From Raja brachyura (taxonomy: Eukaryota): a stretch of DNA of 64,000 bases. The stretch covers positions 22,878,001 through 22,942,000 of the forward strand of contig OY740809.1 in the NCBI GenBank assembly GCA_963514005.1. The letters are read 5' to 3'. The translations under genes were made by a program, and so were the position numbers. This document shows positions 7,501-46,652 of this stretch, piece after piece (position 1 is the stretch's first letter; the number at the start of each line of letters is the position of its first letter). The notes beneath the pieces were generated by a model that saw only the letters and a list, made by a program, of their open reading frames with translations, had not been told where the DNA came from and did not search any database.

Positions 7501-8311
7501 GAAGATATTTTGTTGTTGACTCTATTTAAAACAATGACATCCATGTAGACAAAGCAATATTGCGAACAATTTATATTATGAATAGTATTGTGTAATATAA
7601 TATATTAACGGCAGATATTAGGAACATTTCATAATATCCAGTTGTAAACATCACTGTTAATTCAAATTTACATCAAAGATACTCAAGATCTGAGGAAGGG
7701 CCTCAACGTGAAATGTTACCTATTCCTTCTGTCCAGAGATGCTGCCTGACCTGCTGAGTTTCTCCAGCTTTTTGTGTCTTTACTGAAGACCAGTGTGTTT
7801 TGAGGATAATAGCTGAATCATTTTATTTTAACAGTTTAACTTTAAGGAGGTTATTCTGATTTAGGGTTTCAACGGATTGGCCATACAGTATTAAATTTAC
7901 TCAGATTTATGGCCCCTTTCTCCAGATCTGGTCATATTCCTGTGGCAAATAGTAGCTCCAAACCTGGCAGAGAACTTTAGATATATTTCATCATTTGCCA
8001 CTGTCGAGAATAGCGTTCATGAGAAAACATAGATAACATTTTGCAAAATTGAAACATTACATTTTAGTGGCTATTTCTTTGCCATAAAACACTACACAAA
8101 GCAGCAACTGTGCAAACTTTATCGTGTGAAATGTTGTGCTCCTGCTATAATGCATTTAATCTTCTGGCATTGGATTTCATTACTGCCATTTTTTAATGTT
8201 GAATCACACCACATAACGAAGATGCTCAGCACAACTGACCAATGACTGTCCAAACAAAATACTGCAGATGCTGGAAATCTAAAACAAAAACAGAAAACAC
8301 TGAAAATGAAT

Positions 8312-16600: not shown

Positions 16601-16678
16601 AATTAAAACAACCAACACATTGCAGGCGTGACACCCATAGCCAAGAGACAATCTGAATTTATTAAGTTGTATTTTATT
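16601..16678 (-). terminator. Probable polyadenylation signal of the GATA gene
   Basis: Two AATAAA on the minus strand (16673-16678, 16658-16663), followed by a GU-rich element (TGTGTTGGTTGTTTT, ~16601-16620), about 0.5 kb after the stop codon. Confidence 0.55.
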
Positions 16679-17158
16679 ATTAGCTTGAACCATCCATAAT
16701 AGAACAAGAACTACTTACACTAAGAAAAAAATAATTCCTCGATGAAATGCAAATGTATTTTTACCAGAGGCAAAGTCTGTTCAAACTATTCCACATGTGC
16801 AACGGTCCAAGGAGCACACTCCAAATATATCCATTTCAAGTGGAAAGTTAGAGACATACAGCAAATGGTGGTCCAAAATAAGGCACTTAATTACAAACAA
16901 TGTTGGATCAGAATGCACCAAGGTCACCTACAGAGAATTTAGGTGGTGTTATACCTTGGCAATAAGACATCATTTCTGCAACACTCACTCTTTTAAATTA
17001 TAAGATGATATGACCCAGCATTCCATTTGATTTCTCTTCTTGGCATTCTTGGATCCTCTTCGTCATTTCCAGTTTTCATTCAGATAAAATGTATCTCCGT
17101 TGCAAACTCCATTAATGAAACTAGCTTCGTGAAGATTGTGGTGGCGGTGTGTTTGGCG

Positions 17159-17296
17159 TCAGACCAGCTCCATACTTCCGAAGGGGTAGGATTTGCCTCC
17201 CTTGGATTCTCTACTGGTGCTTGGTTCACTTGAGTTTGTCAGTTTCAAAGTTGGAATGCTGAAGCGAAGACTGTTGCCACCTGTCCCGAAAGTGTC
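17159..17296 (-). CDS. gata4: GATA4-like last coding exon
   Basis: ctatatttccag|GAC...TGA; 138 nt. Encodes DTFGTGGNSLRFSIPTLKLTNSSEPSTSRESKGGKSYPFGSMELV*. The LKL motif is weakly similar to GATA4 ALKLS; phase 0 fits. Confidence 0.78.
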   Translation of the reverse strand, partial: DTFGTGGNSLRFSIPTLKLTNSSEPSTSRESKGGKSYPFGSMELV

Positions 17297-18323
17297 CTGG
17301 AAATATAGAGCAGAGGACACGTTGACATGGAACATTAGCAACATTGGGTGTGCCACTTATGTTAGTATTGTCATGTTGTAATGGTTAAATATTACCATTT
17401 AGCACAAAGTAATTTAGTGTAAGCTTGCAGCCTGGAAGAAAGAAGCTAGCAAGAAGTTTGGCACAGAGAGGTGATTGCCTTTGACTGCATTTCTTGCAAA
17501 ATTGGGGAGGACCAGTAAAGATTCCTTCAAGTTTCGAGAAGATTACCGGACCTACATGTTATCTAAATCTTTCTCATGCTCAGATTTACCTTCCTGTCTG
17601 GTTAATTGTCTGTTGACCCAGATCTTTAACCCCGCCAAGCTCTGGGGTCCCATTCATGTGCACCACATATTGTCTCCTGTCCCAGACAGATGGAAACTCT
17701 GACCATAGTGGTTCCCTGCAATACCAACATCAACCCAGTCCAATATGTTGGGAGAGTTATGGTGGCACCAAGTCACAGGGGAAATTAGTAGAGTACAAAT
17801 AGAATTTCTACCCATTAATCTCTTGCAGAACTTTGTTTCTTTACACTTCAAAAGGAAACATCGGAGTCACCTTTCTCAGAACCCAAGGTGACTCCTGTAC
17901 GGACTCAGTGTGGTCTACCATCTTACAATCTTACACTTAATAAGAATGTGCCTAACCTAGCATTACTTCTTTAGTCAGAGGGTGGTGAATCTGTGGAATT
18001 CATTGCCACAGACGGCTGTGGAAGCCAAGTCAATGGATATTCTTAAGGCGGAGATTGACAGATTCTTACTTTGTAAGGGTGTTAGGGGTTATAGGGAGAA
18101 GGCAGGAGAATGGGGTTGATAGGGAAAAAATAGATCAGCCATGACTGAATGGCAGAGTAGAATTAATGGGCCCAGTGGCCTAATTCTGCTCCTATTGCTT
18201 ATCAATGTATTAGGATTATCACTGAACTGTTTGCAAACAACAAAAGAATGTCACTGTATTTCGGTAAACGTGACAATAAAGTACCATTGGCTCATTGAAA
18301 GTCGCCCCGCTTCCCGGACTTAC

Positions 18324-18448
18324 CTGGGTGCTAACTCTCTGAACTCTGCACGCGGATGAGTAAAGGCCTGGCTCCGTCTTTGGTGTGAGAAGTTCCAATG
18401 CACCCGCGGAATTGCTAATGGGGGTGGATGGCAAACTGGAAAAGGGCG
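18324..18448 (-). CDS. gata4: GATA4-like coding exon 5
   Basis: ttttgtccttcag|CG...CAG|gtaagt; 125 nt. Encodes (A)PFSSLPSTPISNSAGALELLTPKTEPGLYSSACRVQRVSTQ; KTEPGL matches GATA4 IKTEPGL. Confidence 0.88.
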
Positions 18449-18965
18449 CTGAAGGACAAAAATAGAGACAACGGGTTGGTGTCAATTAAAACAAAATGCA
18501 GAGCTGGTAGCAAGCAGCATCACCAAATTGGGACGCGTGTGGTCGATTTCACCGCAAAATGAAACATAATTGAAAACGGGTGGACTTCATGCAGGTGGCT
18601 CGGGCTGTTAGTTTCATTCAGGACCTCCCTGTATTGAAGCGCCAATGCAAAGACGCCCGCCAGCATGCACGCTTGCCACTGCTGCACCGCCCACAGTAAA
18701 CATGGGCAGAAGGAATGACTTTACATTTTACTTTAGACTACAGCACGGAAACAGGTTATTCGTGCCACTGTCCGTGTCTACCAGCGATCACCGGACACTA
18801 GCGCTTTCCTAAGAACAATTTACAATTTTTTACCGAAGCCAATTAACCTACAACTCTGTATGTCTTTGGAGTGTGGAAGGAAGCAGGACACTCACAGGGA
18901 GAACGTACACACACCATGCAGCACTCTGTTTTATCTACACGACTATGAAACATATACTGCTACAA

Positions 18966-21159
18966 CAACATGCTTCTAGCTGGTAGCATGTCAGACTCCA
19001 TGAGGAAGGGCAACATCACCCTAATCCACAAGCAGAAGGGGGAGATGAAGGACATAAGGAATTGGAGACCCATAACGCTCTTGAATGTAGACTACAAGAT
19101 CCTGTCTAAGGCTATCGCCAACCGGGTCAAGTCTGCTCTGGGACAGGTGATCCACCCGGACCAAACTTGTGCTGTACCTGGCAGGAAAATCTCAGACAGC
19201 CTAGTGCTGCTGAGAGATACCATCGCCTACGTGCAGGACAGACGGGTGGATGCCTGCCTAGTCAGCTTGGACCAGGAGAAGGCCTTTGACAGGATTTCGC
19301 ACACGTACATGAGGGACGTGCTCTCCAAAATGGGTTTTGGGGAGGGAATCAGGAATTGGATCAATCTGCTCTACACCGACATCCGTAGTGCAGTCCACAT
19401 AAATGGGTGGGAATCAGACAGTTTCCCTGTAAGGTCTGGAGTCAGGCAGGGTTGCCCTCTCTCTCCTCTCTTGTTTGTCTGCTGTATTGAACCTTTTGCC
19501 GAATCCATCAGGAAGGATGCGAGCATTAGAGGAGTGACACTGCCCGGCAGTGGGGGCATTCAAGTAAAGACCTCCCTGTACATGGACGATGTCGCTGTCT
19601 TCTGCTCGGATCCAGGGTCGGTCCGCAGATTGATTAGTATCTGCGACCAGTTTGAGTCGGCCACGGGAGCCAGGGTGAACCGCAGGAAGAGCGAGGCCAT
19701 GCTCTTTGGCAACTGGCCCGACAGATCTTCCGTCCCCTTCACCATCAAGCCTGACTTCTTGAAGGTGCTGGGGATCTGGTTCGGGGGGGCTGAGGCGTGT
19801 AACAAGAATTGGCTGGAGCGGATAGCCAGGGTGGGGAAGAAGCTGGAGCTGTGGAGGCAACGCTCCCTCTCCATAACGGGAAAGAATTTGGTCATCAGGT
19901 GTGAGGTGCTCTCGGGCCTGCTGTACTTGGCACAGGTGTGGCCTGTCCCTCCTTCCTACGCCACAGGGATCACCCGGGCCGTCTTCCAGTTCATCTGGGG
20001 GTCGAGGATGGACCGGGTGCGACGGGCCACAATGTACAAGTCGGCAGACAACGGGGGTAAAAGCGTGCCCAACGTCGCCCTCATCCTGATGGCCACCTTC
20101 GTGTGTGGCTGCATCAGGCGGAGTGTAGAGCCAAGGCACGTGGGCACCAAGTGTCACTACCTGCTGAGGTTCTACCTGTCCCCGGTGTTGCGAAGGATGG
20201 GCCTGGCGCAGATGCCACGCAATGTGCCAGTCAGCTGGTCACTGCCGCCCCATCTGTCGTCTGTGGAAAGGTTCTTCCGGACCAACACCTTTGACCACAT
20301 GTCCATTGGGCAGTGGTCAGCACAGAATGTCCTGCAGGTACTGCAGGGAAAGGACTCGATGGACCCGGTGGCGTGGTTCCCTGAGCAGACTGCCCAGCTT
20401 GTCTGGCAAAATGCCTCATCGCCAGAACTCACCAACAAGCACCAAGACCTGGCTTGGCTGGCGGTGAGGGGAGCCCTCCCAGTCAGATCCTTCCTGCACC
20501 ATCGGAACCTCACTACCAGCGCACGCTGCCCTCGGGACGGCTGCTATGGAGTGGAGACGGTCGCCCACCTCTTTGCAGAGTGTGGATTTGCCCAAAGAGT
20601 CTGGAGAAAAATGCAAGGGTCCCTGGTACGCTTTATTCCAAACAGCTCTGTCACAGAGGACTCTGTGATTTACGGACTGTTCCCAGGGACACATTCAGAG
20701 ACTGACATCAAGTGCTGCTGGAAGGTCATCAACTCGGTGAAAGACGCTCTCTGGTCTGCCCGAGCTTTGTTCACCACCCAGCAGAGCGAGATGTCCGTCG
20801 GGGAATGTTGCCGACTGGCCCACTGCAGACTGCAGGAGTACGTACTAAGGGACGCACTGAAGCTCGGTGCAGCCAACGCCAAGGCTCGGTGGGGGAGGGC
20901 CACAGTCTAAGGTCCTTCCGCTGCTGGACATGGGGGCACTGTATGGTGGAGACGCCCCTCAAAATAAGGGAAGGTATCCCATGCCGGGGGGCCACATGAG
21001 TGGCACGGGTGGGGGATTAATTAGTAAAATTTGAAAAATGTATATAGACTGCATGGAAGAATTTGTATAGCCTCCGAAAATGTCGGATGGATTTTTCGCA
21101 CGGTTGATGTATTGTAAATATTTATTACTTGAATAAAGTCTATTTTGAAATAAAAAAAA
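18966..21159 (+). mobile_element. Young 5'-truncated Tx1-clade (L1 group) non-LTR retrotransposon in GATA intron, antisense to the gene
   Basis: 14-bp TSD ATATACTGCTACAA at 18952-18965 and 21160-21173; AATAAA plus A-tail at the 3' end; uninterrupted RT ORF. Confidence 0.95.
18970..20910 (+). CDS. Tx1-like ORF2 fragment: reverse transcriptase plus C-terminal Cys/His (zf-RVT) domain, endonuclease missing
   Basis: RT motifs NWRPITLLNVDYKIL, LDQEKAFDRI, GVRQGCPLSPLLF and YMDD; C-terminal CPRDGC...ETVAHLFAEC; 646 codons with no stop. Confidence 0.9.
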   Translation: MLLAGSMSDSMRKGNITLIHKQKGEMKDIRNWRPITLLNVDYKILSKAIANRVKSALGQVIHPDQTCAVPGRKISDSLVLLRDTIAYVQDRRVDACLVSLDQEKAFDRISHTYMRDVLSKMGFGEGIRNWINLLYTDIRSAVHINGWESDSFPVRSGVRQGCPLSPLLFVCCIEPFAESIRKDASIRGVTLPGSGGIQVKTSLYMDDVAVFCSDPGSVRRLISICDQFESATGARVNRRKSEAMLFGNWPDRSSVPFTIKPDFLKVLGIWFGGAEACNKNWLERIARVGKKLELWRQRSLSITGKNLVIRCEVLSGLLYLAQVWPVPPSYATGITRAVFQFIWGSRMDRVRRATMYKSADNGGKSVPNVALILMATFVCGCIRRSVEPRHVGTKCHYLLRFYLSPVLRRMGLAQMPRNVPVSWSLPPHLSSVERFFRTNTFDHMSIGQWSAQNVLQVLQGKDSMDPVAWFPEQTAQLVWQNASSPELTNKHQDLAWLAVRGALPVRSFLHHRNLTTSARCPRDGCYGVETVAHLFAECGFAQRVWRKMQGSLVRFIPNSSVTEDSVIYGLFPGTHSETDIKCCWKVINSVKDALWSARALFTTQQSEMSVGECCRLAHCRLQEYVLRDALKLGAANAKARWGRATV

Positions 21160-21194
21160 ATATACTGCTACAATACCCTACATATCTGTAGTCC

Positions 21195-21530
21195 TTTTTT
21201 TCCAAACATAATTGTAATCAACTATTTACAGAAATATTCACAAAAATACAAACAAACCACCACAATACAAAATAAAGAAATATTCTTAAATATTAAATCG
21301 CTATTTCCCCATCCTTATTGACGACAAAATTCCACCCCCGCTGTGCCCAGCGGTCCCGGAAATCCCTCAGGGCGCCCGTGGACAGCGCTAGTCCCTCTCT
21401 AGCAAAGATCTCCGGCGTAACCCTGGAAAAGGGGCCGGAGGCCGGCTCGGGTGGAGCCCTCTTCCGCCTGGCTCTGTGACTCGCGGATGGCCAGGCCTTG
21501 GAGCAACCGAACCAGGACATCTTCAGCCCT
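21195..21530 (-). mobile_element. Degenerate 3' end of a second Tx1-type LINE
   Basis: Frameshifted peptide EDVLVRLLQGLAIRES...PLFQGY / REGLALSTGALRDFRDRWAQRG...EIAI* resembles Tx1 ORF2 C-termini, followed by a T-rich 3' UTR and short A-tail. Confidence 0.6.
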
Positions 21531-21690
21531 AAATCTTGACGTCTTTGAATTGTGGGAGGATGCCGGAGCACCCGGAGCCAATCCACGCGGTCACCGGGAG
21601 AATGTACAAACTCCGGACACACCGCACCCGGAGTCAGCATCGAACCCGGGACTCTGGCTTCGATCCTCGACCTACTGCTGCGTCACCCCA
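21531..21690 (-). mobile_element. HE1-like V-SINE 5' portion (tRNA-derived head plus V-domain)
   Basis: A/B-box-like GGTGACGCAGCAGTAG...GGTTCGATGCT, then TTTGTACATTCTCCCGGTGACCGCGTGG...CTCCCACAATTCAAAGACGT. Confidence 0.7.
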
Positions 21691-23015
21691 AATGCTCACA
21701 ACTCCAGGAAAATCTTTGAGTGCATGAGCAAAGTCTGAGCAGGCGTGGACAGCTGACGGGAAATCGACGCAAGTAGAACCCCTACTTGGGGGGGGGGGGG
21801 GGGGGGGGGTAAATCAGAATCCGTCTCATTTTGGAGCACACCCGCCATTTTCGCCCCGGGCCCAATCTCCTTGCTGCTCCATACAATCGTTGACTGCATT
21901 TCACCACTGACCGCCCCTCTGACCACAGATCCCCGCAGCATCCCTCAACCACCAAGCCTCTTCCAATCACGATGCACCGCAATCAGCGATACTCCCGATA
22001 CACCACCGTGACAGGTAAACCTATGCTTCCTTCCCCCACCTATATTCCCCACCTCCTCTTCCCTCGACTGCAATCCTGCCCTTCGTCAACTGCAAGCCCA
22101 CCAATTCCACCCTGCCCCGAACCCACTAATCCTGCCCTCTCCCACAGCTGGCCACCAAACCTTCCTGGCAGCTCATCTTCCAGCAGCAAACCGCCGAACT
22201 TCAATGACAAAAAGTGTGAGCCAATGCCAATTCCTTCGGTCAGAAGAAAGAAACAAAATGCAGGACTAACTCAGCGGGACAGGCAGCATCTGGAGAGAAG
22301 GAATGGGTGACGTTTCGGGTCGAGACCCTTCTGCAGACCTATCTTCTCGACGGCGGCTCTCAGACGGAATAGTGTCGATTGGTCTGTCTGAATCAACTGA
22401 GCTGAGCTGCGTAGAGCAGTACTAACGCGTTTCCAACGAATAGTCCATCGGATGTCGACCCTTTAACATAATTACACAATCTGTGCCAGCACTTGCATTT
22501 CTCATAATCCGACTCTAAATTTTTTTTTTTTTTTAATGTCCTATCATCTATAAAGCGATGTGAATTTTGCATTTGTCCTCAGGACCTGCGTTGATGGAGA
22601 AATAAAGAACTGGTTAATTCGCAAAAAGACACAAAGTGCTGGAGTAACTCAGCGGGTCAGGCAGCATCTCTGGAGAACATGCCCAGGTGCGTCAGTCAGT
22701 CTGAAGAAGGGTCTCGATCCCAAACGGCAGCAATCCATGTTCGGCAGAGATGCTGCCTGCTGACCCGCCGAGTTACTCCATCACGCCGTGTCCTTCTGTG
22801 TTGTTGTAGATTGGCTGGAAATGTTTACAAGCAATAAGGATTTATAAAGGTTTTTTCACTAAAAAGTGCTTCAGCATTCTCAAGCTTCGCGGTATACTTA
22901 TTCCACTGTTAGTATTCCACTGCCACATCCCAATGCTCGGACTATCCTGGCAAAAGTACTGAACGAACCATTCATTGTCAGATGAAAGTTACCAGTCCTG
23001 ACGACTGTCGCTTAC

Positions 23016-23103
23016 CAGCGGAAGATGCGTCTTTGTTCACATTCTTTGGTTTCCGCTTCCGTGTCTGGATCCCTTCTTTCTTCATTGCTAAAGGTCGTGG
23101 TAT
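23016..23103 (-). CDS. gata4: GATA4-like coding exon 4 (basic tail/NLS)
   Basis: cgcctactag|ATA...CTG|gtaagc; 88 nt. Encodes [29 protein letters not shown], phase 1 end. Confidence 0.96.
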
Positions 23104-24095
23104 CTAGTAGGCGAAGCGAAGCGAAGATTCAGTGAAACAGCCAAGCAAATAATTGTATGAATATATGGGGGGTGGAGAACATGGGGATGGTGGGCAGAAT
23201 GTCCTCGCGTTGTGCATTAACTGTTCTCTGTGTTATCACTTTTGAAATATAAAGCAGGACGGCACAGATGTGCTTTTAATTCGAAAATCATACCAGGCAT
23301 CACACACAGTGTAACTTTATTCGTGTGTCAGGCTGTGCCATGCAACTAATACCCTGGATTCATTCAGAAACAAAATGTTGGCATTTAAATCCGCCAATTG
23401 CTCACTCGCATCGACTCTCGATTATCTTTAAATTAGGAAGTGGTATGTGGGATAACACTCTGAAATAAAATAGGACCACATATTCATTTAAGAAGCGAGA
23501 GCGCTGTCGCGTATGATCTGGGCGTGGGGCCCCAGTCTCAGGAGTCACAGGCTTCGTCAAGTGGAATCAACTTATATTTATTTCTTTTCAGATCAAAACC
23601 AGACCTTAAACAAACCAAAAATGAAGCTTGCAGTTGTTGTGGTTTACAACCAATGATACCTTTATTTTTTTCATTTTCAAGGCGGTTTCAGTTTTAGAAA
23701 ACGAGGCAGGTGTTTTTTGCACATCACGCTCAGGCGATCGGATAATTTGTTGTTGCAGAATTGATGTTGATTGATGAACTATACCAAAGACTCCGTGGAT
23801 AAAGCTTCTGCTCTTTATGTTTCGAAATAGTGCCTTGGGATCGTTTAAATACTGACCCAAGGGAACAGTGTTTCACGTCTCACTCAAAGAAGCGGAGGCA
23901 CATTGGTCCCACAGTCGCTCGATGTGCTTCCAACCTGCGGACCCGTTGAAGTTGTGGAATTTCAGCCCTCGACTTGCCGACTCGGGCATGATAATTAGAC
24001 TGGTCAATTTTTTAGAAACAAATGAACTGCGGATACCGGTTTACACAAAGGGACATATACTGCTGGAGTAGCTCAGCGGGCAGGCGGCATCTCAG

Positions 24096-35155: not shown

Positions 35156-38100
35156 ACCACGCGTCTGTCTACACCAGTCTGAAGTTAAATGGCACAGTTT
35201 GGAACCGGTCAGTTATTTTGAACGCCTCTTGTGAATGGCCAATAATTGCCCGTTTAGGTATAACGCGACATGAAGTAGTTGGGCCGCTGTCCCAACCCTT
35301 TTGTCCATCTCCAATACTGTTCAACGTTACCATTCCTGCTTTGAATGTCGGAGGCCTTATGGGCTACACCAACTTTTAGCTGAAAATGCGTGAAAACTGT
35401 TCGTAATCAGCCGAGGACAACAATAAATCATTTCACGTCGGGTCTAAATTTTGGTTTCAGACCCAGACCGACGCTTTCAAAATCTCTGCAATTTAACCCG
35501 TCAAGTCAACTCAAATTAGCCCCCTGCCCCCTCTTCCATTGCCACGTGTTCTAGACAGTCACAGGTGAAATGCAAGTGCTGGAGGGTCCAATCGATTGTA
35601 TACCGGCTGCAAGTCAACAGCGGTCGGGGAAGTGGAATGATTAATGGAATCAGTTTCTACACAGAACTTCAGTGCAACTTCCATAAATAACAGCGAGAAG
35701 AAATAACGGACTGTCTAAAAAAGTCATTTTGTTACAAAAATGTGCGTGAAATAATTTTGGATTTGGAATCATGGGGGTTTAGCGATGGGGACTAACGGGG
35801 GAGGTCCTAATCTGCGGCTTGCGAACAATGTTAGTTCGCAAGAGAAATGTCTCTAACCATTGATCACAAGCGTCGGTACTCAGTCACTGTGGTTGAAGTG
35901 TCAGTCAGACCAAATCAATAGTTTGATTGAAGAGTTGATCCGGTGGCAGTTCTAGACGTCAAGTAACCATTACTTTTTTGATCACCGTGTATCGCCCCAC
36001 TCCCCCCTCCACCCCCCGCACTGTCTCACCAAGCCACTGACTGACCCAATCTGACAATGGGTTTCTCGAAGCCGATTAACGTAATTCTAGCTGAGCCGCA
36101 TAAAACCAACCCACGCACCCATTGAAGTGACTTCATCGCCGTCAGTGTCGCGACCCGAAACGTCACCTATTCCTTTTCTCCAGAGAAGCTGCCAGACCTG
36201 CTGAGTCACTCCCCCCTGTATCTATTAGCTAAACTGTGCTCAGCAGCCGATGAAAGAACGGCTTTCAATATAACCGAGTGCTCTTACACAGATATTTCAC
36301 AGTAATTTCGCAAACTGTGAAAAAATATATTGAAAGCGGGTTTAGCATTTCTGCTGTACTTGGGAGAGTGAACACTCACATTTTGTGCATGGCAGGATAA
36401 CACTGGATACCCAATGTTATTCTATCGTACACAAAATGGATACACATCGCCTTGTCATATAGATTTCTCATCTAACTGCCATCATGTTTCATCAACGACG
36501 GGGAAAATATGGAGAGAGAAAAATCGGCTTCAGAAATTTGGTGCAACGAACGCTGAATTGGTGGCATTTGGTGAAATGTGATTTTAGCCACGAGGAACAC
36601 CCGTCTCTGACATTTGTCGTGTTTTACTAGTTGTGTGACGCTAGTCAAATTGCTTCCAAAGGCCTGAACAAAACGACGTGCTTTTTTGGGTTTCGAATGG
36701 AAACTGAGCAGCCGGTGTCTGCTACATTTAATATTCAGTTTGAGAAGCTGTAAAAATAATCACGTTAGATGAGTTAGATTTGAGGAGATAAAACGATTAC
36801 ATTACATAATTAAGGAAGATAGGCTTGCTATGGGCCCAACATTACTGCGGTTCACACCAGAGACGAGGAAGTTGGTGAGCGGCAGAAGTATTTGGGCAGA
36901 ATATGGAAGAGCGGGAGTTAAATACAAAATATAGACAAAAAATGCAGGAGTCATTCAGCGGGGCAGACAGCATCTCTGGAGAGACGGGATGGGTGACGTT
37001 TCGGGTCGAGACCCTTCTTCACCCAAATACAAAAGTGATCGGCTGTTATCTTTAAAATGTGCGAGTTATGTTCGCGAAGTGGGAGGTGATACAGTGGACC
37101 TGGGCAGGCAAACCGACGTTCAGCGGATGTTTTTTTTTAAATTCCGCATGGGTTGCCGGGGTCTTTTCGCCGGCACTGCTTGTGGATGAAGCGACGCACA
37201 TTTATAGTTGATTGGAAAGAAAACGGTTGTTTTTGGTTAAGATCTGATCAAAGAATATTTAGTTACACCGGTTCTTTGTGAGGGAGACCCAGGTCTCATG
37301 AATCGTTCTTTGAAAGGCATGATGTGTACTTTTTAAAGCGGCCCATATATTCGCCGCTTCTATGCTGTCGGCGGAGTCACCATGTAATTCCAGACTATCG
37401 GAAAATAAATCTTAATTACGTCTGAAATTCTGCAGCTTTCTCAACAGCTTATGTGCCGCGACACATTATTCGGGCTTTCAATAAACCCTCGGATTGACTT
37501 CCATATCTCGGCAGCTGTGAGTTTGCGGGCTACATTCGTGATGTGGAACAAGGATAGGACAAGAGTGGAAGCGTGATCGGGATTTCCAGTCTAAAGTTCG
37601 TGTAAAACAGACACCCCCCGCTCACGGGTCTTTCTCTCCTCCACCCGCTGTTGGACTCCGAGCCCTTCCCCGTTGTAACCTCCTCTCTGTCCCATCCACT
37701 TCAAAAAACATTCTCCGTCGCTCCTTTTTCGCTTTAACAATTGAACTTTTTTTTTCCGATTTTTTTTTTTTACTAAGAGTAGTGTTTTACTGTCCCGAGC
37801 GGACAAAGTCTGTTCCCAAACTTGCGGTAGTATCATCGACTTTAATGTTCCCAACCGGCTAATCCAATCCCGCCGCTATTCACTGTTTGATGGCAAGACC
37901 ATTTTCGTTACGGTCTATAATATTCAATTCTACCCTCACTTTAAACGTGGCAACACTATCCATATCCACGCAATCGTTCGTGTAGCTGTGCACTCCGTGA
38001 CATTGAATTTGTGTTTAAAGGAAGATATCTCTTAGACTGCAGAGGAAGTGAATCTCCCGGGGAAGGAGGGCAAATAATCTCTCCCTCCGGTAGGGTATCT

Positions 38101-40790
38101 CAACTACTCTCGCTAGGGTCTGGTTTGATTGAACCGAGTTGACCGTTTTTTGCCAAATGCACGTTTTTCCCTAAACCTCTCCCATCGAGGTTGTGTTGTT
38201 CACGCGGATGATGGGACAGGAAATAGTAACTCGCCTCCACTCCCTTCGGGCGCCGTGTTAACTTCTGGCCCGAACCAAGCCTCAAGCTCTATAAATTCAC
38301 ATAAATGTGCAGACCGGTGGCATCCCGCCTGCTCAACCATTGTCAACCAATTAATCAATCAATCAGTTGTATTCGTCACTTGCACATAAAGTGGGCGAAA
38401 ATCAATTATGTTAAAGCATCACGGACCAGAAACGTGAACAGTTTCTCGTTCCACAGATGCTGCTTGACTTCTCGCATGCTTTTACATTTTCTATTTTTGT
38501 AAGAATTGCTAGCGGGGGATGTTAAAAAAGACAGAGAAGTCTTATTGAAATTCAGCAGAAAACAATTACTCTTATTCCCCAAAGATGTACAAATAATAAT
38601 TAAAATGGAACACTTTTCCCATGATGGGGAAAGACGTGAAGTGTCAAATTTGTATGTGGTCGTTTTGTCCCCACCATTAATCAGGGGGCGCTTCGACTGT
38701 GAGGTTTGGAAGCCGCTGGACTGTCGCACTCGCCCTAATCCCAGTTATCAGACACTTTGTATTTTACAAATCGTGATCACGGGATTTAATTACTAACTAT
38801 CCTTGTTACGTTGGTTAACTCGATTTAGTTTACTTTCCAATTTTAGAGGTACAGCGTCGGAAACAGGTCCTTCGACCCACCGAGTCCGCGCCGACCAGCG
38901 ATCACCCGTAAACTAGTTCTATCCTACATACTTGGGACAATTTACAAAAGCCAATCAACCCACACACCAGAATGAATCAGACCCTCTCTCGCCCACAGAG
39001 AGATTTGCCAATTCTGATCGATGTCTATCCAACTCTATTATCTGTGTATATTGCAGTAGGCTCCAACTCTGTAATCGAATTGGCTGAATCTTTCCTTCCC
39101 TCCCTATTTCATATCGCCATTTTAGCTGATTAGAGAAGGAGTCAGTTAATATCTGGCCGAGACAGCCGAACTGTTGGTGTGACACCCTTCATCCCCCGGT
39201 CCGACTGATCCCTTGCATCCAGTCTGCAGCATATTTCCCCAAGCTAAATCGCCTCTTCCGGGCTGCTGAAGGGGAAAGGAAGCTAATTAATTGCAAAGAG
39301 GCTAGAAAGTTAATGAAATGGATGGCGGTGACTGGTGCAAAAGAAAAAAATAAATTCCAGGCGAAACCACGCAACTTGCTCCATTTCGCAATTGAGCGAG
39401 CTCCCCTCCCCTCCCCTCCCCTCCCGCCCGCCGCTCCTCCCAAAGTATGTAAAAATAACGAGGCGGGTGAAGGTTGCCGACTGTGCTGGGACATTGCGGT
39501 ACGTTCCGAGCACAACCCAATGTTCCACAACACGGTACAAAAACAAATCAGTGATCTTTGTGCATTGAGGAGGTTTCCCCTCCCCTATGGCGAGTGGCGC
39601 CGAGGGCTGAAGGATGTCACCACCAACGGGCGGCCTGTCTCTTCCAGATAGTAACTAAATCCTAAATCCAAGGCAACGCACAGTATCAGTATCATCTGAA
39701 TTTTGAGACTGGCGGGTGGTGTTGATAATTGCTCAAATCTGCAACGATCTGTCCCTTCACAATATCACCCTCCTCCCCCCTCCCATGTCAAAGTGCTGAT
39801 TTCCATTAAGTTCGTTTCGTTAATTTTCGGGTGTTCCTGTCTATTGCCTTGACATCAACATTTGTTTCACCAGCCCTTCAACCCTGGAAGAATTCGGGGT
39901 GGGGAGGGGTGCGGGGACCAACCTTTCTTGGTAAAAAGAACACGTCACATTTATTTTACAAAAGTCCAAAGGGGTCACCGATTGGAACTAGACGGAGGTT
40001 CTTGCGGCATTATTTTGGATATGGTACCGCGGGGGCAGATATGGCCTGTTCGATGCTGGGTGATTTTGCAATGGGCCTGGGACCCGTTTGTGACTTGTGA
40101 GATTTTGAACCTATGACTAAAACAATTCCCCGTACGAAGGCACAGCAGGCCGTTAGCAACCTGTTGTGCCTTAAATATCTGTAGAACCTCGACTACAATT
40201 GAAATCAAACATTGTTGATTCCTGCAATGTTGTGTTTGCATTTTAAGGCAAATCTACACCAGAGTCGCACTGTAGACAGGACATTTTACAAAGAGAATAT
40301 TGAGCACCAAGCCGACCAGTGTTGACCATTCGACAAAGGATCTCAAGTCCCGATTTGCGAGCCACCATTTCATTCTTACAGTTACAATGGGGAAACCTTC
40401 TTGACAAACCAAGCTAACTAATCTTTTGAAAATTCTATTTAAAACACACCATAGCAGCTGCTTTATTCAGATGTGACTGTTGGATAGGAACATTTAAAAA
40501 GGACCTTCGAAAATGTATTTCAATTTTGTTTGTGTGTTGGCCGGCGCACTGAATAGCGAGCAAATGTAAAACAAACTGCTGGAGGAACATTTGCAGAGGG
40601 AGAAGGACTGACGACATTTCGTGCCGAGATCCTTCCTCAGATGGGCCGAAGGGTCACCTGCCAATTTCCCTCCAAAGATGCTTCGCGACCCGCAGAGTTC
40701 CTCCAGAAGGGTGTTTTTATTTTTCGCTCACCATTCCAGCATCTGTAATCTCTTATGTCTACGTTTTGACACTCGTAATTTGCCCTTCAG

Positions 40791-40835
40791 ATTATTATTA
40801 CGATTATTATTATTATTATTATTATTATTGTTATT
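40791..40835. repeat. (ATT)n microsatellite
   Basis: Directly visible, with one interruption. Confidence 0.9.
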
Positions 40836-43290
40836 CTTCTAATGCTGCTTATCATTATTATTCTACATACACTCATGATTATACGTTATTACGAACAAAA
40901 AAGCTTTTTACGGTACCTCTGTACACGTGACAATAAGCTAAACCAAACTAAACTAACTAAGGGCCCTGTGCTTTTTTTTAATGACATTCAGGAGATTTTA
41001 TAGTTCAACAAACGAAAGCTTTCAAGTTCAGTTTAAAAAAAACAGGACTTTCCATGATTCCCTTCCTGATACTAAACATGTCCCGTTCCTGCCAAACACC
41101 TTTTCCTGTAACTCTCCCACACATAGCCGAATCATTCTGTTGCAACAAAGGAAACCTACTCCCCTTCAACTAAGCAGCGGCTCCGCTCCAGGCCGGCCTG
41201 CAAAGCCTGAGCAGAACTCTGACTGAAATGTTCGGCTTGGAGCGCCCTTACTTTCCGCTGTCTGATAGCCGCAGACGGCATCAGACGGATACTTGTAAAC
41301 TGCTTCCAGTAATGTCACTGTATCTGGATAGTGTAGGTTGTCCTTGTTCGTCTAACACGTAAAAACAAGGTTACGTCTTATGTGTAAGATTGGAAGCGTC
41401 GGTTTCCTTGCTCCTATGTATTTTTGATAATCTATAGCCCACAAGGTGGCAGATGAAAATGGCAGCTCAATGCAAGTAAGTTCATACTATTACCCTTTTT
41501 CTCGAGAACCAGGCAACGAAGATATCGGGAAAGTTTGCAAGCTCCAATTAGGCCTGGTGGAGTGTATTTTAAACCTGCCAGAGGGCTTATTAACCTCAAT
41601 GGGTTGAACGCTAGCCCAATACCAAGGAACCCGCACTTCCACCCACTCTGTAGGTTCTTCTGGTCGTTGGGTTATTATGCAGAGTGTGTAAAAACTAGTT
41701 GACATCTCCCCGTGAAACAGGGCAAAGCCGTCACAATGGATTACATTGAAGCCTACATACAGGCACCACGCGAGAAATGGGAAAACTTCGACGCAAATTC
41801 AACGAAAATAAACATTTGCGGCCAAGCTTTGAAATCGACCCTTAAAGCGCTAATCAAAAAAATCAAGAAGGAATTGTAGGGGAAGTGCACTGCTTTTACC
41901 TGGAATGTATAGCATTGGTTCCTTAAGAAAACAAATACCTTATCGTCCATTAAGATAGAATCAAGATATATAATTCAAGTCATTAACTTCTCGTTGATAC
42001 CTGGTCTGTTTCTCGGCATGTTCTACACTTGAGGGACAACAGATTAATTCAATTAATATTTAATTCCCAAGTGAACGTGCAAAGTGGACGATGTTCCCCA
42101 ACAGCGGGATTTTAACTATGAATCCAGCCACTGGATCAGAATCATTAATGCTCTCAATCCCTAATCATGATCAGTTACAGACTGATCAGTTACCCTTTGA
42201 GTGTAACAGTTTGATCAATTTCACGTCCAAAGACTGAGGCTGCGAGCTAGGATTGCCATAATAGCAGGGCGCTCCAGAACGCTCCACACAATAAGATGTG
42301 GGCTACAAACGAATGTAACATCACAAGTGCGTTAAAGATGGGCTCTATTTTTCTTCTGAATGTTCTCGCTGTGATGTGATCTACTCTGTACATGCAGCCG
42401 AACCAACATAGACCCGGTATTCTGAATTTATATACTGTGGGATTTTTCTTCAGTATCTACACTTTAAATTACAAGACGGCGAATTTATTTTAAAAAAAAT
42501 AGTTCCACTCTCTCTCAATTAAACTAATAGAATCGCTGGTTCCAACGCGCGCCCTGCTTAAATACAGGCATAGAATCTTTTCAAGGCCTCGCCTGCGCCT
42601 CTTACAATCAATACTGTTACAACAGCATTAGAAAAAAAACAACTTGTGCGCCGCCCTGGTCTATTCCAGTTAATAGAATTCGCTGCGTTTAATCTGTTTG
42701 AGCACAATTTGTAATCAACACAGGTTTACTGACGCCTGGAGAAATATTTATAACATTAATTCGTCACATAGTTTGTACCATTAGAATATGTCGCATTTGT
42801 TTTCCAAAAAATATGGATAGAATGCTACAGTTTGTACTGAATACATTTTCGTTAATTAAATTGAGAAACTATCACAGTCACATACAATTTCTTTAGAGCT
42901 GTTTGAATTAATGATTTGAGTCCAACTTGTAAAGCTCACACTGTTATACCGGCAATTTATATCAGAGTCAACTCTCCAATTATGACAGTAAACTTCACTT
43001 ATCCAGATTGTAGACTGTGCATAACACAAATTAAAATGTCAACATTCAGATATTTTAAGGAGTAGAAATACGTTTCTTGATTCTCACTCCTGTCTGAATC
43101 GACATATGTTAAATGTAAAGCTAGTTTTAGGGGAGAGGGGCTGGTAGGCATCGGTGATCCGCTGGCGAACAGATCAAGTGGAAATTGGTGCACGGTTATT
43201 TTAGGACACGAACAACACACCTCCTTGCCTCTATTTTTTTAATTGGATAAATGACCCCACATTCCCCAAAGCACCAAGTCAAGGTCCTAC

Positions 43291-43780
43291 CTTCGCCGTG
43301 CCTGCGATGCGGGATCAGACTGAAGGCAGCATTGTCCATGGGAGCCGGGCTCCAGGCGCCGGCCGCCTCCGAGCTCAGGTACTGCGGGTAGTGGTTGGGG
43401 AAGGAGCCGCTGAGGGTCCAGCTGATACTGACCTGGTCCCGCACGGCGGCGGCGGCGGCGGCTGCCGAGGAGATGGAGAGAGGGCTGCTGAAGGCGGGAG
43501 AACCGCTGGAGATCGGCGGGCTGGAAGAGTAGGAAGCGGGGTTGCGGCTGCAAGAAGGTTCGCTGCTCGCCGCCTGAGCCTGCGCCTGAGCCCAGGATGG
43601 GTGAGCGGACACTGGGCTGGCCTGCTGGGGGGAGCTGCCTTGCAGGTAAGAGAAGCCCGACAGCCCGCTGCTCATCCTGGAGCTCGGGACATAGACGGCA
43701 GAACTGGCCGAGTGGAGGAAAGCCCCGACCGGGTCAGGGTGCGCCGTGTAGGGCGGGGGATTGGCCAGACCCTGGTACAT
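43291..43780 (-). CDS. gata4: GATA4-like transcription factor, coding exon 1 (N-terminal activation domain)
   Basis: ATG at 43780 (gagATGT) reads MYQGLANPPPYTAHPDPVGAFLHSASSAVYVPSSRM...YLQGSSPQQASPVSAHPSWAQA...SPPIS...SSPLSIS...YPQYLSSEAAGAW, matching GATA4-type N-terminal motifs. Ends at GAAG|GTAGGA donor; 490 nt, phase 1. Confidence 0.9.
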
Positions 43781-44032
43781 CTCCGGGGCAGGGTCCCGGG
43801 ACAAGCCGAGGGCAAACCCGCACACAGAGAGAGGCTTCAGCGGTGCCACCCGCCTGAATGTCCCGGGACTCAGCGCTCACCCCCCACCAACTCAAAATAG
43901 ATGTCCTTTAGTGGAAAGTCCTCGCGATCTCAACTGATGCCAACTCGCAGCGGCTCCCAGTCCGTCCCAACGCCGGAGAGTAGATCCCGACCACTGACAT
44001 CCGCCGAGGGAGTGGGGTAACTGACAGAACTA
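43781..44032 (-). other. gata4: 5' UTR portion of the first coding exon
   Basis: Strong polypyrimidine acceptor ctctgtctctcgctctctcag|TAG (NAGNAG) at 44033-44055. An in-frame TGA upstream of the ATG excludes a long N-terminal extension. Confidence 0.6.
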
Positions 44033-44952
44033 CTGAGAGAGCGAGAGACAGAGTTCATCAGCTGGTCAAAGATCGAAGGAAAAATGGAAAGGAAATGGAA
44101 ATCAAACCATGGGAGATTTCAATGGGACCTCCCATCTCCCAATGAACGCATCTCGCTGTCAATCTGGCTTTCCAGTCCCCGCCCGCGCTCAACTTTCCGG
44201 GGCGGGCTCTTGTCTGCTCTGAGTTTACCGGAGTTTTCAAGCAGCCACAGTCTCCGGCATTGCAGGTGCGAGAGCGACCGCCTTGCCCCAAGTTTCCCGG
44301 GCGAAGCCGACGCTGGAAGCAGCCGATGTAACGGACCGGCTCGCGAATGTTACCACTTTAAACAAAACGAGCTAACCTCCAAGTAAAATCGTGATTTTAA
44401 GAAAGTAGTGCCCAAATCGGGCTGTAAATTCATCTTTATTAGATTCTCTGCTAACAACAATTTCACCTAACTATTTGGTACCCAGCAAAGGCTTTTCACT
44501 GTGCCCCGGTACACGTGTCAATAAACTAAACTAAACTAGACTAGAGTTGGACTCATGACTCCCATTCCTTCTATTATCCGTCTTCTGTTATTTTTATCAT
44601 ACGTGACTAAAACGGGATTAAGAAAATGGACGCGCAAGAAAATGTAGGCGTCAGAAATAGTTGCCTTGCGAGGAAACATGTAAAGGAGACTTGATAATAA
44701 TTCGTTAAGAGGGAATATTCTTGACAAGGGCGCTCGGGCCAAAGGACAAGAACACACTCTCAGTGGCCAAACACGGCGGGACAAGAAGTGAACTGCAGGT
44801 GCTGGTTCATAGCGAAGATGGACAATGCTGGAGTAACTCAGCGGGTTAGGCAGCATCTCTGGTGAAAAAAATCGGTGATGTTTCGGGTCGGAGCTATTCT
44901 TCAGACAGAGAGCTATTCTTGAGACAGTGGTGGTGTGGGGGGCGGTGGAAGG

Positions 44953-44954
<2 letters not shown>

Positions 44955-44986
<32 letters not shown>
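44955..44986. repeat. (GT)n microsatellite followed by poly-G
   Basis: Directly visible. Confidence 0.95.
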
Positions 44987-44987
<1 letters not shown>

Positions 44988-46652
44988 GGGGGGGGGGGGA
45001 TTAACGTGAGACTAAAGAATAACGGGTGGACTGGAGAGCCCAGGGCAGAGGCAGCTCCATACGGCGCAAACTTGGCGTAGGTCTGGGAGCTGGGAACATC
45101 ACGTTCAGGGTTCCTCCTCGGCTTTTCGTGCATGAAAGGAGTATTTAACACGGACTTGTCCCAGGCGGGCAGGAAGCTGAAAACATGAAGCCGTTAATCA
45201 CAGTGTAGGATAGACACAACATGCTGGGGTGTAGCAGCGGGTCAAACAGCATCTCTGGAGAAAAGGAATAGTGACGTTTCGGGTCGAGACTGCTCTTCAA
45301 CCACTATCTAACGCGGCGGATTGCTACAACTTGATCTGCAATCTCCTTCTATGAGCATTTTAAGCGAATGAAAGGGATTCTCATATAACGTAACAATTGT
45401 TAACTATCCTTGATACGGAGTGAACATTATCTCACAAAGCTATACAATCGAGACGCTGCGGTCCAGCGGTTTATAAACTACTGCCAATCGTTCATCTGAT
45501 GTTTTAGATGCACCCCGGTTTGGAATAAACCAGGCGAATAGTACTCACGATAAATCCTCCAAGTATTTTCAATTTTGTGCAGTTTTGAACATAAGGCGAT
45601 TGGGACACTATTTCCAGTGGAACGTCAGTGAACGGTTTTGAGAAATTACCCTCTTCCCCCGCCAACCTTGCAAATAAGGAAACCCGTTCAAGCGTCCGCA
45701 GAAGGATGCCGACGTTTATAGGATAAGAGTGAGTTATTGTCATATGTCCCAGTCGGAACAATGACATTCTTACTTGCAGCAGTACAACAGAATATGTAAA
45801 CAATATAATACACGAGAATATCTCTGTAAACAATATATAAACGAGAATAAAGTTCTCGTATGGTGTACACACTGAATAGATATATATATTATATTTTCAG
45901 ACATATAGACGCATAAAATAAGCAAACAATAGGGAAAATTCGGTGAATATATACAAGGCCACACCTCGATTACTGCGCAGTTTTAGGCATCTCGTTACAG
46001 AAAGGAGGTGAAAGGCATAGAGGACATTCGGCACAGAATCATCGGGTTAATTTGAGCACGATAATTTATTGTTAAAGGAGGTGTGAGGTTCTGAGGCAAT
46101 TGCCACTGAGATGGGGAAAAATAATTGAGATTAATGGGATATTTGTATTTATCATTTTTCAAGACTTTGGAAATGCTACTTCTGAGTGGTGTGTCATCGA
46201 GAATTGGTTCAATGATTTACTTATTAAAATGGTGAGGTGAAAGACGAGGAGAATATTATCCACAAAATTGTACTCTCAGAAGTATGTAATAAGGGAGAAT
46301 GCGGTTAGAAACAGGCATATGCAATGAGATTAATTTTGGATTGAGCTGGCTAGTTGCTGGCACAGACTCAATGGGAGGTGTAGTTTGAAATTCTTTCCTT
46401 AAACTATGTGCCACTACTGCACAAGGCTGGCCTGCATCCAGAGTGGCCAAACTGTGTCAATTCTTATCGGAACGAGTCTTTGGGTTAGTCTAAAATGAAC
46501 TTTAACCTACTGATCCAATTTCGTGCATTAGTAACATTCCAAAAGAAAGGGCCCATTATTGACAACTCCAATGTATTAACATCAACGCATGAGAATGTCC
46601 TTATTATAATAAAATGTGCATATTACATAGCCATTGATTAAGGGGATCTTAC

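What the first reader, a model, noticed from the sequence alone, without database searches (positions are those of the whole stretch)
17159..43780. Intact but strongly diverged GATA4-like gene: fast-evolving GATA4 or a retained fourth GATA4/5/6 ohnolog?
Seen: six in-phase exons giving 377 aa. GATA4-type marks are present ([42 protein letters not shown]), yet normally near-invariant positions differ. YHKMNG is YNRING, PQRRL is PLKRL and RRVGL is RREGL. The tail is MKKEG as in GATA5/6, and the C-terminal DSWNSLVLA motif is eroded to FGSMELV*. Established: jawed vertebrates generally have three GATA4/5/6 genes from two genome duplications, and cartilaginous fish proteins are usually slow-evolving. 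Inference: this is either an unusually relaxed GATA4 orthologue or the missing sister paralogue. No neighbouring gene is in the window, so I cannot decide.
Basis: partly seen in the sequence, partly recalled or inferred. Interest (0 to 1): 0.7.

Follow-up and report, generated by a model that had tools for sequence, protein, structure and literature searches.

The report
Lost GATA4 twin kept in sharks
This intact heart-and-gut-type regulator gene, labelled GATA4-like in sharks, rays and chimaeras, sits on the chromosome where the long-missing fourth GATA4/5/6 copy would be expected, so it is likely an ancient twin of our GATA4 that cartilaginous fishes kept while probably losing GATA4 itself.

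Summary
The six-exon, 377-aa minus-strand gene is real. It is not a relaxed gene: its odd zinc-finger residues are fixed in orthologues from 19 named sharks, rays and a chimaera. Five searches find only three GATA4/5/6 loci in this skate-like genome: GATA6, GATA5 and this one. It lies between KIAA0319L and ADPRS, near a TFAP2 and a GRHL gene, on the contig carrying LCK-like and FAM167B-like genes. That is the slot left empty for GATA in the published paralogon table. BLK-like/FAM167A-like and NEIL2/FDFT1 lie on two other contigs with no GATA beside them. Trees place it on the GATA4 side but cannot separate twin from orthologue. Best reading (0.78): the second-duplication sister of bony-vertebrate GATA4, predicted as lost in 2009, with reciprocal loss in the two lineages. 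Main rival (0.15): true GATA4 moved onto the sister chromosome early. No paper saying this turned up in nine searches, and the scan had not found it on other DNA.

The parts
43291..43780 (-). Coding exon 1 (ATG at 43780), N-terminal activation region, Pfam GATA-N
   Evidence: GATA-N 88 bits against 213 and 250 for the own GATA6 and GATA5
32888..33054 (-). Coding exon 2, N-terminal zinc finger with YNRING and PLKRL
26354..26479 (-). Coding exon 3, linker (RREGL) and C-terminal zinc finger
23016..23103 (-). Coding exon 4, basic tail ([14 protein letters not shown])
   Evidence: contig depth in its bin equals an 88-nt piece
18324..18448 (-). Coding exon 5 (PKTEPGL)
17159..17296 (-). Coding exon 6 ending FGSMELV and stop
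16654..17158 (-). 3' untranslated region with two AATAAA signals near 16678 and 16663
   Evidence: a 1351-nt contig of a related organism ends at 16654
43001..45500 (.). GC- and CpG-rich stretch over exon 1 and upstream (GC 0.48-0.65, CpG observed/expected 0.69-0.92); likely promoter island
   Evidence: promoter role inferred

Best explanation
The window holds an intact two-zinc-finger GATA4/5/6 transcription factor gene, shared by sharks, rays and a chimaera and lying on the LCK-type chromosome, which is likely the second-genome-duplication sister of bony-vertebrate GATA4 (the 'ohnologue gone missing'), likely kept in cartilaginous fishes while their GATA4 proper was probably lost. Shown: gene structure, three GATA4/5/6 loci, neighbours, conservation, clade. 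Inferred history: after the second duplication both copies were redundant; bony vertebrates kept the copy on the BLK chromosome, cartilaginous fishes the copy on the LCK chromosome, which changed fast early and was then frozen by selection. Inferred working: it would bind WGATAR sites through an essentially unchanged C-finger and basic tail, and would act with GATA5 and GATA6 in heart, gut endoderm and gonad programmes, with cofactor contacts likely retuned, because six of its eight core differences from coelacanth GATA4 cluster at the end of the N-finger and in the linker.
For: Paralogous quartet in this genome: Src-B kinases on C4, C5, C22, C31; TFAP2 genes on C4, C5 (two), C22, C31; the three best GRHL-type CP2 loci on C4, C5, C31; FAM167 on C5 and C31. 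GATA6 is on C4, GATA5 on C22, this gene on C31, none on C5. Lamb 2021 Table S1, paralogon 11, lists GATA4 | blank | GATA5 | GATA6 beside BLK|LCK|HCK|LYN, TFAP2B|E|C|A and GRHL1|GRHL3|blank|GRHL2 and pairs columns A with B at the second duplication. Neighbours on C31: neurochondrin, KIAA0319L (65 kb), ADPRS/ARH3 (182 kb), GRHL (0.33 Mb), TFAP2 (0.8 Mb); chicken GATA4 is 0.9 Mb from TFAP2B and the own GATA5 2.35 Mb from its TFAP2. No GATA match in 400 kb around BLK-like on C5 or 200 kb around NEIL2/FDFT1 on C8. Little skate 'Gata4' is on LER26, flagged there as a possible beta copy of LER5/LER8. C31 is 1.4% of the assembly, so a random move would seldom land there. Tree: own clade 100/100; union with GATA5 or GATA6 rejected (p-AU 0.025, 0.026), union with GATA4 not rejected (0.38); mixture model joins it to GATA4 at 93/96. 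Beta segments evolve faster (PMC10115646). Gillis 2009 predicted a lost GATA4 ohnologue whose region it could not find.
Against: No species with both genes was found, and that is the only direct proof of paralogy: among the best 120 of 818 hits no bony vertebrate has this gene and no chondrichthyan has canonical GATA4. Trees give the same shape for orthologue and twin; the mixture tree nests the clade inside GATA4 on a 0.70 branch. With the topology fixed, the GATA4 stem (0.062) is shorter than the bony-vertebrate stems of GATA5 and GATA6 (0.089, 0.088), which fits orthology; the proportion test favoured paralogy in only 101 of 150 bootstraps, interval 0.18-0.95. LCK-like and FAM167B-like are 15 Mb away on C31. 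The BLK-like to NEIL2 link is broken in this genome exactly where GATA4 sits in chicken and human, so GATA4 could have left at that break; BLK and GATA4 are also 83 Mb apart in reedfish. The assembly can miss GATA genes: only two GATA1/2/3 loci were found, one without its N-finger beside a 200-N gap. Neighbours were read in this genome only; in 8 of 18 species with a contig length the gene lies on a contig outside the 33-48 Mb range. No function was tested.
Confidence: 0.78

Rival explanations
1. It is the true GATA4 orthologue, moved (by translocation or exchange between the two sister chromosomes) onto the LCK-type chromosome in the stem of cartilaginous fishes, where it went through a burst of change and was then conserved.
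For: Exactly three GATA4/5/6 genes, as in bony vertebrates; groups with GATA4 in the mixture tree; short GATA4 stem; the BLK-like to NEIL2 junction is broken at the GATA4 site in this genome; one event plus the known loss instead of two independent losses.
Against: Needs a landing on the one paralogous chromosome that lacks a GATA gene (1.4% of the assembly) and 0.8 Mb from a TFAP2 gene, mirroring GATA4-TFAP2B and GATA5-TFAP2C. Identity to bony GATA4 (56-63%, 5 pairs) is in the range of paralogue pairs (60-64%, 4 pairs) rather than shark-bony orthologue pairs (63-72%, 4 pairs), with overlap. 18 of 19 named database entries call it 'GATA-4-like', only Callorhinchus 'GATA-4'.
Confidence: 0.15
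2. It is the fourth ohnologue and a canonical GATA4 also exists in cartilaginous fishes (four genes), but is missing from this assembly and from the hit lists.
For: The assembly lacks one expected GATA1/2/3 locus and one N-finger exon; the C8 region near NEIL2 is GC-rich and holds a gap; only the best 120 hits of 818 and of 201 were listed.
Against: Five searches of the assembly agree on three loci. A search with the skate GATA6 N-terminal exon lists 17 chondrichthyan GATA6 and 9 chondrichthyan GATA5 entries and many bony GATA4s down to E 3e-27, but no chondrichthyan GATA4; 21 unnamed hits all match bony-vertebrate proteins best.
Confidence: 0.04
3. It is a fast-evolving, decaying or lineage-specific copy under relaxed selection.
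For: Long stem branch; crown depth about twice that of chondrichthyan GATA6 (0.128 against 0.060); the SPRF motif is absent in 21 of 21 proteins but present in 95 of 106 bony GATA4s.
Against: Intact in 19 named species across rays, sharks and a chimaera; core nearly invariant; spliced-length contigs exist.
Confidence: 0.03

Closest known systems
GATA4 of bony vertebrates (coelacanth P0014; human in PDB 8vg0, 2m9w)
   Same: Same exon plan, GATA-N domain, two fingers, basic tail; best PDB match; 100 of 108 core residues identical to coelacanth GATA4; same side of the tree.
   Different: Lies on the LCK/TFAP2E/GRHL3-type chromosome, not with BLK or NEIL2/FDFT1; fixed changes at the equivalents of human H245, K246, M247, Q258, R259, V267, A272, V304 (numbering anchored on G296 and V267); no SPRF motif; PKTE in place of IKTE/IKIE in elasmobranchs; different C-terminus; absent from listed bony-vertebrate hits.
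GATA4-ogm, the 'ohnolog gone missing' of Gillis et al. 2009 (PMC2857956, passages read)
   Same: A GATA4 sister from the second duplication, expected on a fourth paralogous region.
   Different: That paper inferred the gene lost in vertebrates, could not identify its region, and has no mention of sharks in its main text; here the slot holds an intact gene.
Database 'transcription factor GATA-4-like' of elasmobranchs; 'Gata4' of the little skate genome (PMC10115646); C. milii 'gata4' used as GATA4 (PMC7712675)
   Same: These are the orthologues of this gene (78-97% identity).
   Different: They are named as or like GATA4; no source seen treats them as a separate ohnologue.
Differentially retained ohnologues and hidden paralogy (68 cases in PMC10115646; Kazald quartet in PMC12955574)
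   Same: Same kind of event: lineages keep different copies from the vertebrate duplications.
   Different: Here the loss would be reciprocal and would concern a core heart and endoderm regulator; whether it is among the 68 cases could not be checked, because that list is not in the supplement as held.

Membership tests
Vertebrate GATA4/5/6 subfamily | Two C-X2-C-X17-C-X2-C GATA fingers with basic tail | tested here: met
   PF00320 twice, 102 bits
Vertebrate GATA4/5/6 subfamily | GATA-N activation domain (PF05349) | tested here: met
   88 bits, cut-off 20.3
Vertebrate GATA4/5/6 subfamily | One coding exon before the fingers and three short exons after them (Gillis 2009) | tested here: met
Vertebrate GATA4/5/6 subfamily | Binds WGATAR and activates transcription | not testable with these tools
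   Inferred from a C-finger and tail that differ from coelacanth GATA4 at 2 positions
GATA4 orthologue | Lies on the BLK/TFAP2B/GRHL1 chromosome, near BLK or NEIL2/FDFT1 | tested here: not met
   On C31; BLK-like on C5, NEIL2/FDFT1 on C8, no GATA match near either
GATA4 orthologue | Groups with bony-vertebrate GATA4 in a tree | tested here: inconclusive
   Unresolved under LG+G4, not rejected (p-AU 0.38), 93/96 under the mixture model; a twin would group the same way
GATA4 orthologue | [30 protein letters not shown] linker and SPRF motif of bony GATA4 | tested here: not met
GATA5 or GATA6 orthologue | Groups with GATA5 or GATA6; no other copy in the genome | tested here: not met
   p-AU 0.025 and 0.026; own GATA5 and GATA6 found elsewhere
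Second-duplication sister of GATA4 (GATA4-ogm) | Lies on the fourth chromosome of the paralogon (LCK, FGR, TFAP2E, GRHL3) | tested here: met
   paralogue labels rest on best PDB hit (LCK only narrowly over HCK), position and recall
Second-duplication sister of GATA4 (GATA4-ogm) | On the GATA4 side of the first duplication | tested here: met
Second-duplication sister of GATA4 (GATA4-ogm) | Predates the shark-chimaera split | tested here: met
   Callorhinchus orthologue in the 100/100 clade
Second-duplication sister of GATA4 (GATA4-ogm) | Split from GATA4 is older than the shark-bony split | tested here: inconclusive
   101 of 150 bootstraps closer to the paralogue expectation; short GATA4 stem
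Second-duplication sister of GATA4 (GATA4-ogm) | Coexists with GATA4 in some species, or a remnant of the other copy survives | tested here: inconclusive
   None seen in listed hits or in this assembly; other vertebrate genomes could not be searched

The most novel reading that the evidence does not exclude
Cartilaginous fishes have no GATA4: the gene every database calls shark GATA4 is the fourth GATA4/5/6 ohnologue, thought extinct, and jawed vertebrates split the pair reciprocally, so shark hearts, guts and gonads are built with a rewired twin whose linker and N-finger were reshaped early and then frozen for some 400 million years.
Probability: 0.72. Interest if true: 0.75.

Novelty: new member of a known kind. 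Interest (0 to 1): 0.66.

Why it matters
GATA4 is treated as a universal jawed-vertebrate regulator of heart, endoderm and gonad. If sharks, rays and chimaeras run on its twin, the jawed-vertebrate ancestor had four GATA4/5/6 genes, the 2009 'missing ohnologue' is found, and comparisons that use shark 'GATA4' as GATA4 compare paralogues. It also offers a natural experiment: a vertebrate heart built with a factor that has a charged residue at the equivalent of V267, where a human variant weakens a chromatin-cofactor contact, and that lacks two motifs recalled as GATA4 regulatory sites.

Tried and rejected
A 26-aa finger query found only itself. The cathepsin B propeptide family rang nowhere, controls included, so CTSB was not located. 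A first strict exon finder caught 1 of 4 internal exons and was replaced. tblastx between regions was swamped by repeats and not used. No gene was recognised in the 100 kb just upstream of the window, nor among the GATA5 flanks scanned. Pfam gave no match for the Claspin-like and GRHL N-terminal exons; the PDB search did not name the kinase beside BLK-like. The branch-proportion test was inconclusive. Two motif counts failed on a faulty pattern and were redone. The catshark supplement and file 1 of the little skate supplement could not be read. No structure or complex was predicted: the fold is known and would not decide the question. Rejected: pseudogene or retrocopy (intact, introns), GATA5/6 duplicate (AU tests), species-specific oddity (19 species).
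Full report
1. Observation. The window is G000:C31:22,878,001-22,942,000 of a 2.70-Gb assembly. Six minus-strand exons (43291-43780, 32888-33054, 26354-26479, 23016-23103, 18324-18448, 17159-17296) with GT..AG introns give 377 aa and one terminal stop. The protein is 96.6% identical to an Amblyraja protein, so the animal is skate-like (inference). A 1351-nt contig from a guessed-RNA run of a related organism lies on 16654-17295, stops at the exon 6 acceptor and runs on for 688 letters; depth in the exon 4 bin equals an 88-nt piece in two runs of one sample. Full-length orthologues also come from contigs of 1922 and 1899 nt, which must be spliced since the gene spans 26.6 kb. The gene is real and its orthologues are likely transcribed; tissue is unknown.

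2. It is a conserved cartilaginous-fish gene, not a relaxed one. Exon 1 finds 10 proteins among 1197 candidates: 8 chondrichthyan-type at 65-95%, then a frog GATA4 at 34% and a bird GATA5. Cluster look-up names 19 species: 9 batoids, 9 sharks and Callorhinchus; 18 are annotated 'GATA-4-like', Callorhinchus 'GATA-4'. In the 108-aa finger core, 20 elasmobranch proteins differ from the window's by 0 or 1 residue, Callorhinchus by 4. Against coelacanth GATA4 the core has 8 differences, as many as skate GATA5 has; lungfish and Xenopus GATA4 have none; but shark-bony orthologue pairs of GATA5 and GATA6 also differ by 5 and 6, so this count alone decides little.

3. Count of GATA4/5/6 loci. PF00320 (150 of 227 candidates scored), an exact CNACGLY pattern (10 sites, 0 in the reversed control), the own GATA5 N-finger exon (11 of 11 scored), PF05349 (3 matches, 6 of 6 scored) and coelacanth GATA4 (40 of 40 scored) all give three loci: GATA6 on C4 (16.72 Mb), GATA5 on C22 (34.78 Mb) and this gene on C31. 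Caveat: only two GATA1/2/3 loci were found, and one lacks its N-finger exon with a 200-N gap upstream, so this assembly can miss GATA genes. Database searches cover the gap in part. With the skate-type protein, the best 120 of 818 hits are 9 proteins of this clade, 1 mite protein, 4 GATA5 and 106 bony-type GATA4. With the skate GATA6 N-terminal exon, the best 120 of 201 hits include 17 chondrichthyan GATA6, 9 chondrichthyan GATA5 and many bony GATA4 entries, but no chondrichthyan GATA4. The 21 unnamed hits checked from these two lists match bony-vertebrate proteins best. The best 150 representatives at 50% identity gave no second protein with the NRI state.

4. Neighbours. On C31, in order: a TFAP2 gene (22.07-22.10 Mb), Claspin-like exons (label recalled, no Pfam match), neurochondrin (22.75 Mb), KIAA0319L (22.79-22.83 Mb; Pfam and PDB), this gene (22.895-22.922 Mb), ADPRS/ARH3 (23.10-23.135 Mb) and a GRHL gene (23.24-23.27 Mb). 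Far along the same contig lie a Src-A kinase (37.44 Mb), a FAM167 gene (38.06 Mb) and a kinase whose best PDB match is LCK, narrowly over HCK (38.11 Mb; 92.5 against 91.5 bits). That these are human 1p34-36 genes is recalled. On C5, a FAM167 gene is head to head with a Src-B kinase (BLK by position), followed by an SH3-SH2 tyrosine kinase (FRK/PTK6-type, label recalled) and GCKR; 400 kb gave no GATA match. On C8, EMILIN-like, GPN1-like, NEIL2, FDFT1 and an adenylate cyclase lie together; 200 kb gave no GATA match.

5. The chromosome is the empty slot. Src-B kinases lie on C4, C5, C22 and C31, TFAP2 genes on the same four, and the three strongest CP2-family loci on C4, C5 and C31. Lamb 2021 (PMC8040251; passages and supplement rows read) lists for paralogon 11: GATA4, blank, GATA5, GATA6; BLK, LCK, HCK, LYN; TFAP2B, E, C, A; GRHL1, GRHL3, blank, GRHL2, and derives columns A and B from one parent at the second duplication. 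GATA5 fixes C22 as column C and GATA6 fixes C4 as D; C5 fits A and C31 fits B. Chicken GATA4 is 0.9 Mb from TFAP2B; this gene is 0.8 Mb from its TFAP2. In chicken chromosome 23, TFAP2E, LCK and GRHL3 lie within 1.4 Mb. The little skate paper (PMC10115646; passages, section 6 and parts of supplement file 2 read) places a gene named Gata4 on LER26, notes LER26 as a possible beta copy of LER5/LER8, numbers Kiaa0319l and Grhl3 eleven models apart, and reports faster evolution of beta segments. In 10 of 18 species with a contig length the gene is on a 33-48 Mb contig; the others were not checked, and catshark chromosomes are reported as fused (PMC11979771, passages).

6. Trees. With 53 proteins chosen from those fetched (374 columns, LG+G4), the clade has 100/100 support and a 0.44 stem; GATA5 and GATA6 each hold shark and bony subclades, GATA4 holds only bony vertebrates, and the base is unresolved. 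AU tests reject joining it to GATA5 (0.025) or GATA6 (0.026) but not to GATA4 (0.38). With 35 of the rows (cyclostomes and 13 redundant rows left out) and a mixture model it joins GATA4 at 93/96, nested on a 0.70 branch. With topology fixed the GATA4 stem is 0.062, shorter than the GATA5 and GATA6 bony stems, which counts against the twin reading; as a share of the GATA4 path it is closer to the paralogue expectation in 101 of 150 bootstraps. No amphioxus sequence was in the set. Trees show the GATA4 side and no more.

7. How it likely works. Shown: both fingers and the basic tail are intact, and the C-finger and tail differ from coelacanth GATA4 at two positions. Inferred: it binds WGATAR and activates or pioneers GATA targets with GATA5 and GATA6. 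The N-finger face recalled as binding FOG cofactors is unchanged. Six changes cluster at the end of the N-finger and in the linker, including glutamate at the equivalent of V267; a preprint (10.1101/2020.02.12.945790, passages read) maps JMJD3 binding to this linker and finds that V266M/V267M weakens it without loss of DNA binding. SPRF (recalled as the S105 kinase site) is absent in 21 of 21 proteins and present in 95 of 106 bony GATA4s; the IKTE/IKIE motif (recalled as a SUMO site) reads PKTE in 20 elasmobranch proteins and VKTE in Callorhinchus. So cofactor use and signalling input are likely retuned. None of this was tested.

8. Known and new. Gillis 2009 (PMC2857956, passages read) concluded that a GATA4 ohnologue was lost after the second duplication and could not find its region. 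PMC7712675 (passages) uses C. milii gata4 as GATA4. Nine searches of the held library listed no paper that treats chondrichthyan GATA4 as a separate ohnologue; most listed papers were seen only as listings, subscription journals are not covered, and the little skate list of 68 differentially retained ohnologues could not be seen, so prior notice is possible. Earlier scan notes hold nothing on this gene.

9. Verdict. Likely the fourth GATA4/5/6 ohnologue with reciprocal loss, 0.78; early move of true GATA4 onto the sister chromosome, 0.15; four genes with GATA4 missed, 0.04; relaxed copy, 0.03. New member of a known kind; interest 0.66.

Noticed in passing
window 18949-20910 (+), intron 4: 653-aa stop-free frame of a LINE-type reverse transcriptase (RVT_1 and zf-RVT), antisense to the GATA gene; a shorter RT fragment lies at 24350-24886 in intron 3.
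   Followed up: partly
window 43781-44005 (-): The N-terminal extension of the Heterodontus model (P0004) aligns to sequence upstream of the ATG, which here contains a stop: likely conserved non-coding 5' sequence misread as coding in that model.
   Followed up: no
L071-L080, L061-L064 (C5 63.88-64.02 Mb) and L133-L138 (C8 27.47-27.53 Mb): BLK-like is followed by an SH3-SH2 kinase and GCKR, while NEIL2/FDFT1 follow GPN1-like. GCKR and GPN1 are recalled as near neighbours in human, so this looks like a reciprocal rearrangement with one break at the GATA4 site.
   Followed up: partly
L156:3264-3463 and 7589-7717 (C19 3.84 Mb); C16 23.70 Mb: Only two GATA1/2/3 loci were found; the C19 one shows only its C-finger exon, 4 kb after a 200-N gap. 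A third GATA1/2/3 gene (GATA1 or GATA3) was not seen.
   Followed up: partly
L087 (C870), L014 (C1104), L012 (C375): A FYN-like kinase exon and two GATA-finger co-regulator exons lie on small unplaced contigs, a sign of incomplete placement in the assembly.
   Followed up: no
L186:3036-4621 (C31 23.115 Mb): GC-rich stretch with long overlapping frames and a short peptide repeat inside an ADPRS intron; no Pfam match for the one frame tested.
   Followed up: no
P0221, P0228, P0233 (database proteins): Hagfish and lamprey GATA4-like proteins form a weakly supported group (59/87) near the base; one hagfish copy also has N at the H245 position.
   Followed up: partly
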